A stretch of 32,000 bases of DNA from the NCBI GenBank assembly GCA_020846135.1, contig JADLEK010000014.1, positions 17,719-49,718 on the forward strand, written 5' to 3'. Positions 5,060 through 13,604 of the stretch are shown here, in pieces (the first letter of the stretch is position 1; every line of letters starts with the position of its first letter). The DNA comes from Gammaproteobacteria bacterium. GTDB taxonomy: Bacteria > Pseudomonadota > Gammaproteobacteria > Competibacterales > Competibacteraceae. The translations under genes were made by a program, and so were the position numbers. The notes beneath the pieces were generated by a model that saw only the letters and a list, made by a program, of their open reading frames with translations, was not told the origin of the DNA and ran no database searches.

Positions 5060-5096
5060 CCTGAATTTATTGGCGAATCCCGATCCCGCGGTGTAG
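5060..5096. repeat. 37-bp direct repeat, left copy (non-coding duplicate of the yadH 3' end)
   Basis: CCTGAATTTATTGGCGAATCCCGATCCCGCGGTGTAG is identical at 37/37 positions, in the same orientation, to 13568-13604. Confidence 0.95.
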
Positions 5097-5230
5097 GGGT
5101 CTTGGAATAACGACTCTGGAGACTTGTGCTTAGCCAAGCGGCCGGTGAGCAAACCCGGCGATCGCGATGCGATGACCGGATTCCGGATTCTGCAGGAAGA
5201 ATGAGCTTGATTGACGTGCGCAGCTCGGGG

Positions 5231-6040
5231 TCAGGGATCGTAGCGACCCCGGCAGGCGTTCAACAGAATGGTCAGGACCGCCAGATTGCCTTGGATACTG
5301 CTGATCTTGGTGGGGACTTGGCCGGTAGCGGGGTAGCGACGAGTGGTGGGCAATTCGAGACAGCGATAGCCCAGTTTTGGCGCTCGGTAGGACAGATAGG
5401 CCAGCAGTTCGTAAGTCAAGAAGATGTCCCTGAACGGGGCGACTTTAGGATCGAACAGCAGTTTGCGGCTATACGCTCTGAATCCCTGGGTGGTGTCGGT
5501 CCAGTGAAACCCGGAACAAAAGCTCAGCAATGGCGCATGGACCCAACGAATAGCAAATTCGCGAAATTTCGGCGTGTTTTCGCCAACCCCGCCGGGGATA
5601 TAGCGTGAGGCTTGGACGAAATCCGCGCCGTTTTGCAGGGCGTTGATAAATCGGGGGATGGCGGCGGGATCGTCCTTGTTGTTGCCGTCAATGGTGACAA
5701 TGCCTGCATAGCCCTGTCCAAGGGCGAAGGCATAGGCGCAACGAAGTTGGGCGCTCAGCTTGCCGGGTCCGGTTTTGACCAACAGACCGCGTACACCCTG
5801 AGCTTGAAGTGCAACTGTGTTCAGCGAACCGTCGGTGCTGCCGCCGTCCACAATCAAAATATCCGCCAGATTCTGAATTCCAAGAGTCGCCATTCGGTCG
5901 AGCAGCTTTCCAATCCGCTCGCCTTCGTTAATGACCGGAATGACAATGCACCACGGCTGACCTTGACCTAGCCATAAACGGGTTTCAAAGGCGGGCACTT
6001 GCCAAGTGGCGCGGATTTCCGGGGTTATCTCAGCGTTCAT
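5231..6040 (-). CDS. Family 2 glycosyltransferase, soluble DPM1-like
   Basis: GT2 hallmarks are present: CIVIPVINEGERI, ILIVDGGSTDGS and VTIDGNNKDDPAAIP. There is no C-terminal TM helix. The ATG at 6040 (MNAEITPE) is preferred over the track start at 6079. Confidence 0.8.
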   Translation of the reverse strand: MNAEITPEIRATWQVPAFETRLWLGQGQPWCIVIPVINEGERIGKLLDRMATLGIQNLADILIVDGGSTDGSLNTVALQAQGVRGLLVKTGPGKLSAQLRCAYAFALGQGYAGIVTIDGNNKDDPAAIPRFINALQNGADFVQASRYIPGGVGENTPKFREFAIRWVHAPLLSFCSGFHWTDTTQGFRAYSRKLLFDPKVAPFRDIFLTYELLAYLSYRAPKLGYRCLELPTTRRYPATGQVPTKISSIQGNLAVLTILLNACRGRYDP

Positions 6041-6103
6041 CGTTTTAATCCATATGGATACACAAATAAATTCAACCAAAAAATGGTATAGAAGCCGTAT
6101 CGC

Positions 6104-11303: not shown

Positions 11304-12431
11304 TCAGATTTGGCTTGAAATAACATCATCTTCACTCAGCTTTTCCAAACAATCATAAATATTGTCAATCTTCCCGCCCAGAATCGAATAGCACCCCGGC
11401 AATTCGGGATGCTTTTCAAACAGAATGGGTCGCCCGTCGTCGCCTTCGTTTTTCACCAGCACCGTTTTCACTTCAAACAGCGAATCCACATAGCGGGCAT
11501 CGAGGATGGCGGGCAGATACCGCGCCACATCCCGCACCATCCGATCCACTCGGGTCGCGCACTCATAATTCTCCAATCGCTGATAAGGATCGACGCCCGG
11601 TTGATCCAGCCAATGCAAATGCGGGGTATAGCGGACATGCGAGAGGGTATGTAGCTTGCGGGGCGGAAACGGCATCATCGAGAAAAACGGCCCATCCATG
11701 ACGGTGACGCCCAACCCGGCCAAAGCAGCGGGCGGCTGCATCAACGCCATTTCGGTAATTTCCTGCTTCAGACGAGTCCGGGTGCCAGGGAAATCCCCGC
11801 CGAACTGATTCAATCCGCTGTAGGTGCAATTGAACACAGTACGCGCCGCCAGCGTTTCGCTCGCGCCAGTAGCAACAGGAACGCACTCAACGGCTAACCG
11901 TGGCGGTTCAGCCCGAATGCCGCTGACGTGAGTGCTGAATCGAACGTCAACCCCGGCGCGGTTCAACGCCGCTGCGGCCTGATCCGCCAACACACTGGCG
12001 TCAAAGACGTATTCCTGCGCCAGAAACACCGCCTCAATCAGCCGTGATTCAAACAGTTGGCTGAGTGCCTGGGGCGCGGGTTCGAGCTTGGCCCCAATAT
12101 CGTGGCAAAACCGGATGAATTGCCTGGCGGTGACGTTGGAGTTGCGGCGGGCGATAGCGTAGAGCTTGGTGAAATCCTGCCTTACCGCGTCGGGATAATC
12201 GCGCACAAAGCTGGGCAGGTTGACCCGGCTGCGATAGGCGGTCGTGAAGCTGCGGGGATAGTGATAACCGTTGTGAATCCGGGCCTGATTGTTGTACGAG
12301 GATCGGGTCAGCAATGCCGGTTCCCGTTCCAGCAACGCCACCCGCGAAAATCCGCGCCGGGTCGTCAGCTCACAAGCAATGGCGGTCCCATAAAAGCCGC
12401 CGCCAATAATGATCGCGTCATACAGCGCCAT
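11304..12431 (-). CDS. FAD-dependent oxidoreductase (DAO/GMC-like Rossmann N-terminus)
   Basis: MALYDAIIIGGGFYGTAIACEL...ALLERE is a dinucleotide-binding fingerprint at the extreme N-terminus. Length is 375 aa. Confidence 0.8.
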   Translation of the reverse strand: MALYDAIIIGGGFYGTAIACELTTRRGFSRVALLEREPALLTRSSYNNQARIHNGYHYPRSFTTAYRSRVNLPSFVRDYPDAVRQDFTKLYAIARRNSNVTARQFIRFCHDIGAKLEPAPQALSQLFESRLIEAVFLAQEYVFDASVLADQAAAALNRAGVDVRFSTHVSGIRAEPPRLAVECVPVATGASETLAARTVFNCTYSGLNQFGGDFPGTRTRLKQEITEMALMQPPAALAGLGVTVMDGPFFSMMPFPPRKLHTLSHVRYTPHLHWLDQPGVDPYQRLENYECATRVDRMVRDVARYLPAILDARYVDSLFEVKTVLVKNEGDDGRPILFEKHPELPGCYSILGGKIDNIYDCLEKLSEDDVISSQI

Positions 12432-13483
12432 GCGGTTCCCCCATCAACCGCTATGACGAGCGACCACCGGCGTTGCCGTCGGTGTCGGGGGGGGTGGTGG
12501 GTGACAACCGTATCTTCAATGTTAAGACGCTGCCGACGGGTCATCACCGCACTGGTGAATTCTTGCGCCACATGGTAGGGCGGCCCTTCCTGACTGAGCC
12601 GAGCCATGTGCAGGATATATTCGCTCAGCATCAGTAGCACCAGGGAAAACAGGAAGAACATCCCGGACTGTTGCAGCGACAAGGTGACCCAGCCCGGCGC
12701 GACGTTTTCCTTGGCTATCGCAATGAGGATGACGTAGCCGGAATACACCAGATTAGCGACCGCGCCGAACAGCGACAGTAAAGTCATCAATCGCATCGGC
12801 CCACGAGTCGTGGACACCATCAACCGCATCCCGTGATCAATGCTTTCGCCCAAGCGTTTTTTCCGGTGGGCTTTCGGCGGGGCGCTGTAACTCAGATTGG
12901 CTTTGGAAAAACCAGCGGTAGCCGGTAAATGGCGATAGATCAGCGCCGGAGTCGGATGCTGCAAAATGAAATTCACCACCCGCTTGCTGATGATCCGGTA
13001 AGGCGGCGCTTCCCGCGCCATATCAAGCCCATTGAACCACTGATAAAGCGTTTTGAAGGCCCAAGCGCAACTGCGATAAGCCAGACTCTGCCGGGACTTT
13101 TGCGTGTTCACCGCAAACACCACATCCGCCCCAGAGACCACCTGATCCAGCATGGTCGGCAGAAACTGAAGGTCATCCGTCAGCGGATCGATAACCGCCA
13201 TGAAGTCCCCCAGCGCATTTTCCAAACCGGCCCAAGAGGCGGTATCCGCATCAACCTCCTTGGTCAGCGCATAGATTTGCAGGTTTGGAAAGCCCCGCTC
13301 ACCGGTGAGTTGCTTGAGTACTGCCACGCTGTCGTCATCCGAAGCGTTGTCCACGATGATCAGCTCATAATCACTGACCAAGGACGCGACGGCAGTGGTC
13401 ATTTGTTCAATGATCGCGCGCAATTCATCAGATTGATTACGCACGACCAGCACCACTGATAAAAAAACCGGGAAATAGGTCAT
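12365..13483 (-). CDS. Family 2 glycosyltransferase with C-terminal TM helices (polyprenyl-phosphate glycosyltransferase, ArnC/GtrB/DPM1-like)
   Basis: The N-terminal GT2 domain has SVVLVVRNQS, LIIVDNASDDDS and AVIDPLTDD. Two C-terminal TM helices follow (LMTLLSLFGAVANLVYSGYVILIAI; MFFLFSLVLLMLSEYIL). The RBS is a strong AGAGGAGG. The last roughly 22 codons overlap the FAD gene by 67 nt and look non-native. Confidence 0.8.
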   Translation of the reverse strand: MTYFPVFLSVVLVVRNQSDELRAIIEQMTTAVASLVSDYELIIVDNASDDDSVAVLKQLTGERGFPNLQIYALTKEVDADTASWAGLENALGDFMAVIDPLTDDLQFLPTMLDQVVSGADVVFAVNTQKSRQSLAYRSCAWAFKTLYQWFNGLDMAREAPPYRIISKRVVNFILQHPTPALIYRHLPATAGFSKANLSYSAPPKAHRKKRLGESIDHGMRLMVSTTRGPMRLMTLLSLFGAVANLVYSGYVILIAIAKENVAPGWVTLSLQQSGMFFLFSLVLLMLSEYILHMARLSQEGPPYHVAQEFTSAVMTRRQRLNIEDTVVTHHPPRHRRQRRWSLVIAVDGGTAWRCMTRSLLAAAFMGPPLLVS

Positions 13484-13567
13484 CCAACCTCCTCTAACTC
13501 TGCCTCAAATCCTACCACATTGTGTTTTTTCCAAGAAAGCTCGATCCCGATTAGATGAATTGGCAAC

Positions 13568-13604
13568 CCTGAATTTATTGGCGAATCCCGATCCCGCGGT
13601 GTAG
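13568..13604. repeat. 37-bp direct repeat, right copy (contains the last 9 codons and the stop of yadH)
   Basis: Identical to 5060-5096. On the minus strand it reads CTA CAC CGC GGG ATC GGG ATT CGC CAA TAA, which is LHRGIGIRQ*. Confidence 0.95.

What the first reader, a model, noticed from the sequence alone, without database searches (positions are those of the whole stretch)
5060..13604. Perfect 37-bp direct repeat duplicating the yadH 3' end brackets an 8.5-kb glycan-modification island with no integrase
CCTGAATTTATTGGCGAATCCCGATCCCGCGGTGTAG occurs twice in the same orientation, at 5060-5096 and 13568-13604. The right copy carries the last 9 codons plus the stop of yadH (LHRGIGIRQ*). The left copy is non-coding and sits 14 nt from a REP-like element upstream of dctP. 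Similarity stops abruptly on both sides of the 37-mer. Everything between the copies is one co-directional block of eight glycan-modification genes (5231-13483). This is the attL/attR signature of site-specific integration into the 3' end of a gene, where the target is regenerated. However, no integrase, recombinase or excisionase gene lies between the repeats. The island is therefore either a decayed element, mobilised in trans, or acquired by another mechanism that left a 37-bp duplication.
Basis: partly seen in the sequence, partly recalled or inferred. Interest (0 to 1): 0.7.

Follow-up and report, generated by a model that had tools for sequence, protein, structure and literature searches.

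The report
Integrase-less glycan island with 37-bp repeats
An 8.5-kb block of cell-surface sugar-modifying genes was inserted precisely at the end of the yadH gene of a wastewater bacterium (Candidatus Contendobacter), duplicating 37 bases of the target, but it carries no enzyme of its own to explain how it got there.

Summary
A perfect 37-mer lies at 5060-5096 and 13568-13604. The right copy is the last 9 codons, stop and 7 nt of yadH. The repeats bracket 8,471 bp with eight intact co-directional Gtr-like glycan-modification genes, one apparently frameshifted gene and no recombinase.

A congener (yadH 96% identical) has apbE-yadG-yadH-dctPQM with one 37-mer homologue. Both island junctions fall exactly at the repeat ends. 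Ten further Competibacteraceae loci also have yadH directly followed by dctP, so this is a real, lineage-specific insertion.

A homologous island (84-88% nt) sits at an unrelated locus in another bacterium. It has the same distal end, and a 94-bp imperfect direct repeat of that locus's gene 3' end plus terminator brackets it. A more distant version is cargo of a P2-like phage.

My best reading (about 0.5) is attL/attR scars of integrase-mediated integration, with the recombination module lost or supplied in trans, as in a cis-mobilizable element. No integrase or circular form was found, and the two repeat sequences are unrelated. Rivals are a transposition-like process making long target duplications, and homology-driven insertion. 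I rate it a new member of a known kind, of moderate interest.

The parts
13568..13604 (+). Gene-proximal copy of the 37-bp direct repeat. On the - strand it is the last 9 codons (LHRGIGIRQ), the stop codon and 7 nt of yadH. It is the attL-like junction.
   Evidence: The homologous single copy in L094 differs at 6 of 37 positions.
5060..5096 (+). Distal copy of the 37-bp direct repeat. It is non-coding and is followed by the native yadH-dctP intergenic region. It is the attR-like junction.
   Evidence: L094 6785-7834 aligns to window 5095-4055.
5097..13567 (-). Inserted island of 8,471 bp. GC is mosaic, at 55-60% with two segments of 33-36%.
   Evidence: Absent from L094/L095 and from 10 other Competibacteraceae yadH-dctP loci. 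GC profile. Present in all contigs that carry the exact yadH, dctP or GT2a proteins.
12365..13483 (-). GtrB/ArnC-type polyprenyl-phosphate glycosyltransferase (GT2, 372 aa). It has a C-terminal extension of about 30 aa compared with its relatives of 341-343 aa.
   Evidence: Pfam PF00535; NCBIfam ArnC-like, residues 8-296. PHROG 841, GtrB-like, full length. Solved ArnC and GtrB (sll0501) chains match residues 6-296. Lengths of relatives.
11304..12431 (-). FAD-dependent oxidoreductase of the DAO family.
   Evidence: PF01266, E = 8e-22.
9716..11326 (-). Low-GC polytopic membrane protein of 536 aa, probably a GT-C-fold glycosyltransferase. This is the variable, GtrC-like module of the island.
   Evidence: No Pfam hit. 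About 10 hydrophobic segments. AlphaFold model with pLDDT 66. The best PDB folds are all GT-C: DPY19, AftA, ArnT, ALG12. L112, L116 and L119 carry unrelated membrane proteins at this position.
8916..9719 (-). SDR/epimerase-like protein of 267 aa.
   Evidence: Weak PF01370 hit. Conserved in L112, L116, L119 and L122.
8077..8919 (-). Xylose-isomerase-like TIM-barrel protein, a sugar epimerase/isomerase-type enzyme.
   Evidence: PF01261, E = 3e-20.
7727..8080 (-). Small EamA/SMR-like membrane protein of 117 aa, a candidate flippase subunit for the lipid-linked sugar.
   Evidence: PF00892 listed for the called gene. Four hydrophobic segments.
6104..7715 (-). Second low-GC membrane-protein gene, split into two overlapping frames (6960-7715 and 6104-7069) at a (CCAGT)4 tract at 7044-7063. 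The segment is absent from the islands in L112 and L116.
5231..6040 (-). Second GT2 polyprenyl-phosphate-sugar synthase-like glycosyltransferase (269 aa).
   Evidence: PF00535. PHROG 841.
5097..5230 (-). Conserved non-coding distal end of the island (134 nt), ending ...GTCGTTATTCCAAGACCCC directly against the repeat. It is a candidate P arm or element end.
   Evidence: It aligns with L112 up to ...TTATTCCATAACCCG, 9 nt before that island's own repeat. No significant secondary structure.
13575..14348 (-). yadH, the ABC-2 transporter permease and target gene, left intact by the duplication.
5024..5043 (.). REP-like hairpin in the native intergenic region. It predates the island and is not part of it.
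   Evidence: Single copy in the window. A degenerate homologue is present at the same place in island-free L094.

Best explanation
The block at 5097-13567 is a horizontally acquired Gtr-like cassette that modifies a surface glycan through polyprenyl-phosphate-linked sugars. It encodes two GtrB/ArnC-type synthases, a small flippase-like protein, one or two GT-C transferases and three sugar-tailoring enzymes.

Shown: it was inserted at the 3' end of yadH in the Contendobacter lineage of this window, after that lineage split from the nearest sampled congener. The insertion left two identical 37-bp copies of the target, so yadH keeps its native last nine codons.

Inferred: the two copies are attL and attR. 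A circular phage- or island-borne element carried an attP that included a copy of the yadH 3' end. A tyrosine integrase recombined it with the chromosome. The integrase-bearing part next to yadH was later deleted, or the cassette never had one and used a helper's integrase. What remains is a cargo-only element flanked by att sites, in the manner of a cis-mobilizable element.

The conserved 134-nt distal end would be the P arm. The related island in L112 would have used a related integrase with a different core specificity.
For: Empty site in a congener. L094 6000-6820 aligns to window 14390-13568, and L094 6785-7834 aligns to window 5095-4055, so about 36 nt of L094 align to both copies.

Outgroups. 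In L006, L007, L009, L010, L012, L013, L014, L017, L018 and L111, yadH is followed by dctP within 100-260 nt.

Geometry. It is the usual one for integrase targets in gene 3' ends. The repeat starts 27 nt before the stop codon and runs past it, and the island is co-oriented with the gene. The expected integrase position next to the target gene is empty here and filled with IS debris in L112.

Second insertion. A homologous island in L112 has the same distal end abutting a 94-bp repeat that starts 29 nt before the stop of its upstream gene. The two L112 copies differ mostly in the spacer and in the hairpin loop. The coding part has one synonymous change and the stems are intact. That looks like two alleles that each evolved as a functional gene end.

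Phage link. A homologous cluster is cargo of a P2-like phage, between gpD and the repressor. GT2b matches the phage GtrB O-antigen-conversion family.

Known category. The cis-mobilizable element is an established kind of element (PMC5704250).
Against: No integrase, excisionase or remnant of one occurs in the island, whose non-coding ends of 84 and 134 nt leave no room for one, or in the ORFs annotated around it, 5231-15907.

The repeats at the two sites are unrelated in sequence, and the shared motif is not significant at p = 0.08-0.16. Two different core specificities with one P arm must therefore be assumed.

The two window copies are identical to each other, yet differ at 6 of 37 positions from the congener's site. 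An incoming attP would have had to match this species' allele exactly. A fresh duplication of the target would explain the identity more simply.

No other element sits at the yadH 3' end in 94 yadH loci. Prophages near yadGH in IMG/VR lie upstream of yadG, not at the yadH 3' end.

The 37-mer and the distal-arm sequence are absent from IMG/VR.

In the P2-like phage group the cargo slot is not next to an integrase.
Confidence: 0.5

Rival explanations
1. A transposition-like insertion that duplicates a long, variable stretch of the target. In this view the island is a non-autonomous element with defined ends, moved by an enzyme encoded elsewhere. That enzyme would cut the two target strands tens of bases apart (37 bp here, about 94 bp in L112). 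Repair synthesis then creates the repeats from the target itself.
For: The repeat sequence is that of the local target at both sites, and the two targets are unrelated.

The same distal island end abuts the repeat at both sites.

The two window copies are identical and carry this species' allele, which differs at 6 of 37 positions from the congener.

There is a precedent for long, variable target duplications of 8-514 bp, made by IS1549 and IS1634 (PMC2266710).
Against: The island ends carry no terminal inverted repeats. The best candidate is 10 of 11 nt at unequal offsets, with uncorrected p of about 0.02.

No transposase lies in the island. The neighbouring IS1595 element has its own 28-nt inverted repeats and an 8-bp duplication and is unrelated to the island ends.

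Both repeats start 27-29 nt before a stop codon of a co-oriented gene and run past it. A target-blind mechanism would give that only through selection.

The differences between the L112 copies do not look like neutral decay of one copy.

The prior for such a mechanism moving an 8-kb cargo is very low.
Confidence: 0.15
2. Homology-driven insertion without a dedicated recombinase. DNA from a conspecific or congeneric donor that already had the island next to yadH entered the cell. It integrated by a single crossover in the short yadH 3' segment (Campbell-type integration of a circularised fragment), or by homology-facilitated illegitimate recombination. Either route duplicates the shared segment.
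For: A 37-bp perfect match is, from my own knowledge, at or above the minimal length for RecA-dependent exchange.

The locus is recombinationally active. The dctPQM operon downstream is a different type (49-58% aa identity) from that of the 96%-identical-yadH congener, although the intergenic region is orthologous.

Partial 3'-end duplications occur as recombination scars next to homologous clusters. One is a 217-bp uvrA 3' duplication flanking a toxin-antitoxin pair in L116. Another is a decayed partial gpD copy in phage L122.

Repeat lengths and identities vary from case to case: 37 bp at 100%, 94 bp at 88%, 217 bp at 93%.
Against: This route only moves the problem back a step, because a first insertion next to yadH is still needed.

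It does not predict that two insertions in unrelated genes would share the same distal island end to within 9 nt.

No island-bearing donor other than this species was found. All 23 contigs read in each of three exact-protein look-ups (yadH, dctP, GT2a) show the same structure.
Confidence: 0.15
3. The island is ancestral at this position and the relatives lost it by recombination between the repeats. In that case the repeat is not an insertion scar of this lineage.
For: Recombination between 37-bp direct repeats would regenerate exactly the empty site seen in L094 (inference).
Against: Eleven loci from across the family, including both dctPQM types, lack the island and show no second copy of the yadH end.

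The island's GC mosaic, and its homologues at other chromosomal sites, in a polysaccharide locus and on a phage, mark it as mobile cargo.

The origin of the repeat would still need explaining.
Confidence: 0.03

Closest known systems
Cis-mobilizable elements (CIMEs): decayed ICEs or IMEs that keep attL and attR but have lost their integration and transfer genes. An example is the CIMEs at the 3' end of fda in Streptococcus thermophilus (definition from PMC5704250; the fda example is from my own knowledge).
   Same: A cargo-only block is flanked by direct repeats that duplicate the 3' end of a protein-coding gene. The target gene is regenerated and no integrase lies inside.
   Different: No cognate ICE, IME or phage and no integrase are known for this site. 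att function is untested. A homologous island elsewhere has an unrelated repeat. The host is an uncultured gammaproteobacterium.
gtrABC O-antigen modification operons, carried by temperate serotype-converting phages and left behind in prophage remnants in Salmonella and Shigella (PMC3688519, listed; details from my own knowledge).
   Same: The island has a GtrB-type bactoprenol-phosphate glycosyltransferase, a small flippase-like protein and a variable, low-GC, polytopic transferase. The variable transferase module is swapped between otherwise conserved islands. A relative is carried on a P2-like phage.
   Different: This island is larger. It has a second GT2 and a DAO, SDR and TIM-barrel trio. 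Its flippase candidate is EamA-like rather than of the GtrA family; a GtrA-family protein does occur next to the distant homologue in L093. No phage genes remain.
IS1549 and IS1634, IS elements that make long, variable-length target duplications of 8-514 bp (PMC2266710).
   Same: Direct repeats of tens of bases are derived from the target itself, and their length differs between insertions.
   Different: Those are 1.5-2-kb IS elements with inverted repeats and their own transposase. Here the insert is 8.5 kb of cargo without inverted repeats or a transposase.
Lambda and HK022 integrases, which are related enzymes that use similar arm-type sites but different core sites and different attB (from my own knowledge).
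   Same: They offer a precedent for two related elements sharing a P-arm-like end while integrating at unrelated core sequences, as the window and L112 would require.
   Different: No integrase is available here to compare, and arm-type sites have not been identified.

Membership tests
Cis-mobilizable element or decayed integrative element | [quoted passage not shown] | tested here: met
   A perfect 37-bp repeat lies at 5060-5096 and 13568-13604, and the right copy is the yadH 3' end. An island-free congener has one copy, with junctions at the repeat ends.
Cis-mobilizable element or decayed integrative element | Lacks its own integration and transfer genes. | tested here: met
   No integrase, recombinase, relaxase or transposase hit among the island's nine coding regions in Pfam, NCBIfam or PHROGs. 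The non-coding ends are only 84 and 134 nt long.
Cis-mobilizable element or decayed integrative element | The repeats are substrates of a site-specific recombinase encoded by a related ICE, IME or phage that uses the same attB. | not testable with these tools
   No such element was found. There are no further repeats of the yadH end in 94 yadH loci and no integrase downstream of yadH in relatives. The 37-mer is absent from IMG/VR and the JGI metagenome set. The rest of the genome could not be scanned.
Cis-mobilizable element or decayed integrative element | Descends from an autonomous element, shown by remnants or by intact relatives with a recombination module. | tested here: inconclusive
   A distant homologous cluster is cargo of a P2-like phage, but in that phage group the cargo slot has no adjacent integrase. 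No remnant of phage or ICE genes occurs in the window or in L112.
One fixed att specificity shared by all copies of the island | The same core sequence at every insertion site of the element. | tested here: not met
   The L112 island has the same distal end but a 94-bp repeat from an unrelated gene. The similarity between the two targets is not significant.
DDE transposon or IS-derived non-autonomous element | Terminal inverted repeats directly inside the target duplication. | tested here: not met
   No inverted repeat between the two island ends. The terminal 15-30 nt score no better than shuffles (p = 0.85-0.99), and the best internal match has unequal offsets.
DDE transposon or IS-derived non-autonomous element | A short target duplication of fixed length, 2-14 bp for most families. 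| tested here: not met
   The duplications are 37 bp here and about 94 bp in L112. Only IS1549 and IS1634 are reported to make such lengths.
Gtr-type glycan modification system | A GtrB-type polyprenyl-phosphate glycosyltransferase. | tested here: met
   PHROG 841, residues 8-305 against 4-303 of 309. Solved GtrB (sll0501) and ArnC chains match residues 6-296.
Gtr-type glycan modification system | A polytopic, serotype-specific transferase (GtrC-like or GT-C). | tested here: inconclusive
   The model is of moderate confidence (pLDDT 66). The top PDB folds are all GT-C, but with TM scores of only 0.3-0.47. The phage homologue has a weak PMT_2 hit.
Gtr-type glycan modification system | A GtrA-family flippase (PF04138). 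| tested here: not met
   The small membrane protein at 7727-8080 is EamA-like, not GtrA-like. A GtrA-family protein is present only beside the distant cluster in L093.

The most novel reading that the evidence does not exclude
The island would be a cargo-only mobile cassette with a defined end that inserts just inside the 3' ends of co-oriented genes. The enzyme moving it would be encoded elsewhere and would not need a fixed target sequence. Each insertion would duplicate tens of bases of the target itself (37 bp at yadH, about 94 bp at an unrelated gene in another bacterium), so that the gene is always regenerated. That would be a long-stagger, gene-sparing integration mechanism not described for any bacterial island.
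Probability: 0.15. Interest if true: 0.8.

Novelty: new member of a known kind. Interest (0 to 1): 0.45.

Why it matters
Competibacteraceae are abundant glycogen-accumulating organisms in wastewater treatment. Surface-glycan modification cassettes are classic determinants of phage sensitivity and surface properties.

This case dates an acquisition precisely. It appears in every contig sampled for this species, is absent from the nearest congener, and both junctions are resolved to the base. It also shows the same cassette at a second, unrelated chromosomal site and, in a more distant form, on a P2-like phage.

If the repeats are att sites, this is a clean example of domesticated phage or island cargo, and it points to an unrecognised integrase specificity for the yadH 3' end. 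If instead the repeats are made afresh from each target, it points to an undescribed way of inserting large cargo without damaging the target gene.

The perfect 37-bp repeats also give the cell a route to precise loss of the island by ordinary recombination.

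Tried and rejected
1. Dispersed-repeat idea. The 37-mer occurs only at the two junctions in the window and in all related contigs. A 31-nt core of it is absent from the JGI metagenome contig set and from IMG/VR.

2. Similarity to phages and plasmids. The yadH 3' end gave only chance hits in phage records. 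The whole island gave no plasmid match.

3. Circular or alternative contexts. The exact-protein look-ups for yadH, dctP and GT2a returned only the same arrangement.

4. IS1595 involvement. The IS at 14429-15472 has its own 28-nt inverted repeats and an 8-bp duplication, TTAGGTTT. Its ends share only CCTGA with the 37-mer. Rejected.

5. Terminal inverted repeats of the island. None found.

6. A common target motif. TGGC(T)GCTACA(CC)GCGGG occurs at both insertion sites but is not significant, at p = 0.08 against shuffles and 0.16 against real sequence. A shared CAGGATT 36-37 nt from the island end was noted but does not fit the extent of the L112 repeat.

7. GAATCCSG as an arm-type site. The motif is common throughout the window, with 13 copies. 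Not diagnostic.

8. attC-like or other structure, or a known RNA, at the ends. No fold is better than shuffles and there is no Rfam match.

9. Integrase remnant in L112 between the repeat and GT2b. Only IS1595-like and zinc-finger/HTH IS fragments are there.

10. The 106-nt repeat in L019. It is a GC-rich palindromic extragenic element, unrelated to the finding.

11. Prophages next to yadH in IMG/VR. They sit upstream of yadG with their integrase there, not at the yadH 3' end.

12. The distal-arm 33-mer in IMG/VR. No match.

13. The two frames of the split membrane gene as homologues of the other variable transferases. No similarity.

Full report
**Observation.** The 37-mer CCTGAATTTATTGGCGAATCCCGATCCCGCGGTGTAG occurs at 5060-5096 and 13568-13604 in direct orientation. 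There is no third copy even at 3 mismatches, and none of 100 shuffles gave two matches. Similarity extends to 40 nt with one mismatch and then stops. On the - strand the right copy is the last nine codons, the stop codon and 7 nt of a 257-aa ABC-2 permease at 13575-14348 (NCBIfam PRK15066, 390 bits). Public records name this protein as an ABC transporter permease of a Candidatus Contendobacter sp. MAG with a 3.46-Mb contig (MCC6134294.1 / MCC8992560.1). The left copy is non-coding and lies 16 nt from a perfect hairpin at 5024-5043. Contigs from several ENA and JGI assemblies show the same structure, six of them with both copies in place, so it is not an assembly artefact.

**What lies between the repeats.** The 8,471 bp at 5097-13567 are all coded on the - strand, in the same direction as yadH. 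In order from yadH they are:
- a GT2 of 372 aa;
- a DAO-family FAD oxidoreductase;
- a 536-aa low-GC membrane protein;
- a 267-aa SDR-like protein;
- a xylose-isomerase-like TIM barrel;
- a 117-aa EamA-like membrane protein;
- a second low-GC membrane-protein gene split into two frames;
- a second GT2 of 269 aa.

The first GT2 matches the phage GtrB O-antigen-conversion family over its whole length. It also matches solved ArnC and GtrB (sll0501) structures. The 536-aa protein has no Pfam hit. A moderate-confidence model of it (pLDDT 66) finds only GT-C glycosyltransferases as best folds: DPY19, AftA, ArnT and ALG12. It works like a Gtr-type system with added sugar-tailoring enzymes. No integrase, recombinase or transposase is encoded inside. 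Only 84 nt and 134 nt of non-coding DNA separate the genes from the repeats.

**Is it an insertion?** Yes.
- The closest relative I could find (yadH 96% identical; L094, a JGI contig, and L095, a Logan contig) has apbE-yadG-yadH-dctP-dctQ-dctM.
- L094 6000-6820 aligns to window 14390-13568, and L094 6785-7834 aligns to window 5095-4055. About 36 nt of L094 therefore align to both copies, and both island junctions fall exactly at the repeat ends.
- The reconstructed empty site aligns collinearly with L094 through the 37-mer homologue (31 of 37 identical), the hairpin element and the dctP promoter region.
- Ten more distant Competibacteraceae loci also have yadH followed by dctP within 100-260 nt.
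- Every contig read that carries the exact yadH, dctP or GT2a protein has the island: 23 in each look-up.

The island was thus gained in this lineage and is present in every contig sampled from it. The hairpin element is older than the island and is not part of it.

**The same island elsewhere.**
- L112 and L116. High-GC parts of the island (window 13492/13522-11329, 9470-7734 and 6044-5132) are 84-93% identical to clusters in two other organisms. In L112 the cluster lies between an InlB-B-repeat protein gene and PPDK. In L116/L117/L118 it lies between a NUDIX gene plus an IS and uvrA. In both, the low-GC transferase gene is replaced by an unrelated membrane protein, and the second low-GC segment is absent. 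The variable module is therefore swapped, as gtrC is in enteric bacteria.
- L119. A version about 79% identical is embedded in a large polysaccharide locus. Homology there runs only from the first start codon to the last stop codon.
- L122. A more distant version (38-63% aa) is cargo of a P2-like phage. It follows tail tube, tape measure, gpU and gpD, and precedes an S24 repressor and Ogr/Delta. In relatives of that phage the same slot holds 0.5-7.4 kb of varying content and no integrase.

**The key comparison.** In L112 the insert is also bracketed by a direct repeat, at 661-753 and 8857-8950. The alignment spans 94 columns with 83 identical and has sharp ends. That repeat is the last ten codons and stop of the upstream, co-oriented gene plus its terminator hairpin.

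The non-coding distal end of the island is conserved between the window and L112 right up to the repeat. The window reads ...TTATTCCAAGACCCC against the 37-mer. L112 reads ...TTATTCCATAACCCG, then 9 nt, then its repeat. The proximal side is not comparable. In L112 it is filled with fragments of an IS1595-like and a second IS. In L116 an IS with a 9-bp duplication sits there.

The two target sequences are unrelated. The best shared motif is not significant, at p = 0.08-0.16. The island is therefore a discrete unit with at least one defined end. It has entered two unrelated genes' 3' ends, each time leaving a repeat made of that gene's own end.

**Mechanism.** Three models fit the topology.

*Model 1: integrase-mediated integration (about 0.5).* The repeats would be attL and attR. 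The attP would have carried a surrogate gene end, and the recombination module was later lost or was supplied in trans, as in a cis-mobilizable element (definition in PMC5704250).
- In favour:
  - Both repeats start 27-29 nt before a stop codon and run past it.
  - The island is co-oriented with the gene.
  - The position where an integrase is normally found, next to the target gene, is empty or IS-scrambled.
  - The distal end is conserved, as a P arm would be.
  - The L112 copies differ like two functional alleles: one synonymous change in the coding part, several in the spacer, stems intact and the loop flipped.
  - The cargo type has a phage association.
  - Related integrases that share arm sites but use different cores are known for lambda and HK022 (my own knowledge).
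- Against:
  - I found no integrase, remnant, circular form or second element at this site.
  - The attP would have had to match this species' allele at all six positions that differ from the congener.

*Model 2: a transposition-like process that duplicates a long, variable stretch of target (about 0.15).* It explains the target-derived, unrelated repeats and the perfect identity. Its precedent is IS1549 and IS1634, with duplications of 8-514 bp (PMC2266710). However, the island has no inverted repeats. Nothing explains the shared position just inside gene ends. No such enzyme is known to move 8 kb of cargo.

*Model 3: homology-driven insertion from a donor that already had the island next to yadH (about 0.15).* The locus is clearly recombinogenic. 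The dctPQM operon is of a different type from that of the congener. Partial 3'-end duplications occur as scars near homologous clusters. This model still needs a first insertion, and it does not predict the shared distal end.

Loss from all relatives is very unlikely, given eleven island-free loci.

**Comparison with known systems and verdict.** The finding is real, and its central prediction was fulfilled at base resolution. By anatomy it is a cargo-only island flanked by repeats of a gene's 3' end, which is a known kind (cis-mobilizable elements and grounded prophage cargo such as gtr operons; PMC5704250, PMC3688519). The target, host and cargo are new. Membership cannot be completed, because the defining recombinase-site relationship is untestable here. 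One expected feature, a single core sequence at all sites, was tested and not met.

The case has two uncommon aspects. The repeats are perfect although the island carries no recombinase. A second insertion shares the distal end but has an unrelated repeat. These keep open a roughly 15% chance of an undescribed integration mechanism. Interest is moderate.

Noticed in passing
window 14421-15480: A complete IS1595-family element at 14429-15472. It has a 317-aa transposase with a zinc ribbon and a DDE domain, 28-nt inverted repeats and an 8-bp target duplication, TTAGGTTT. It inserted exactly at the stop codon of a PIN-domain gene. It lies outside the 37-bp repeats.
   Followed up: yes
window 14391-16103: Compared with the congener L094, 1.7 kb has been inserted between yadG and yadH. 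It holds a PIN (VapC-like) toxin gene at 15473-15907, a short upstream antitoxin-like ORF interrupted by a stop codon, and the IS. The site in L094 is a GGTTAAA x3 tandem, and only about 6 nt (TTAAAG) are shared at the two junctions.
   Followed up: partly
window 1884-4825 versus L094 7058-10019: The TRAP transporter dctPQM downstream of yadH exists in two types in Competibacteraceae. The window has one type (81-92% aa identity to L007, L009, L012, L017 and L018). The near relative L094 has the other (49-58% aa identity to the window, but 78-96% to L006, L010, L013 and L014). The yadH-dctP intergenic region is nevertheless orthologous, so a replacement breakpoint lies near the dctP start.
   Followed up: partly
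window 7044-7063 (- strand): A (CCAGT)4 pentanucleotide tract sits where the two overlapping frames of the second low-GC membrane-protein gene meet (6960-7715 and 6104-7069). One more unit would fuse them into a single ORF. This is a possible slipped-strand on/off switch. All 12 contigs covering the tract show 4 units.
   Followed up: partly
window 12365-12460: The GtrB-like GT2 is 372 aa here but 341-343 aa in its close relatives. Its last 30 residues or so overlap the start of the DAO gene. In L091 the corresponding peptide is encoded in another frame, which suggests a frameshift or lost stop near the 3' end.
   Followed up: no
L116 7935-9001: The last 217 nt of uvrA are duplicated at 93% identity. 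The two copies flank a 624-nt insert that carries a DUF4258 toxin and a zinc-finger antitoxin-like gene. The downstream copy is a decaying pseudo-end that lies 18 nt from the stop of the island's last gene. This is another integrase-less cassette bracketed by a gene-3'-end repeat.
   Followed up: partly
L122 5287-5729: In the P2-like phage that carries the homologous glycan cluster, a decayed, frameshifted partial copy of gpD (residues about 173-303) lies between the intact gpD and the cluster. It is a scar of recombination between diverged phages.
   Followed up: partly
L097-L100, L106-L111 and L007-L018: The upstream neighbour of yadH varies widely in Competibacteraceae. It is yadG in some, CoA-transferase genes in others, and a HiPIP gene (with recN convergent downstream and no yadG) or a DEAD-box helicase in others.
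   Followed up: no
L055 10830-14100 and L056 17500-19000: Large CRISPR-like arrays, with repeats of about 29-32 nt at a 61-nt period, lie close to yadH in two Thiolinea MAGs: starting about 60 nt downstream of yadH in L055 and about 7 kb downstream in L056.
   Followed up: no
L167 7784-8770 and L168 7784-8866: IMG/VR prophage predictions from other Gammaproteobacteria end with an integrase-like gene about 300 nt upstream of yadG. The yadGH neighbourhood thus hosts prophages there, but on the other side of the operon.
   Followed up: partly
L112 6007-6647: A HicB-like antitoxin gene and a small partner ORF are inserted in reverse orientation inside the L112 copy of the island, between the SDR-like and TIM-barrel genes.
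   Followed up: no
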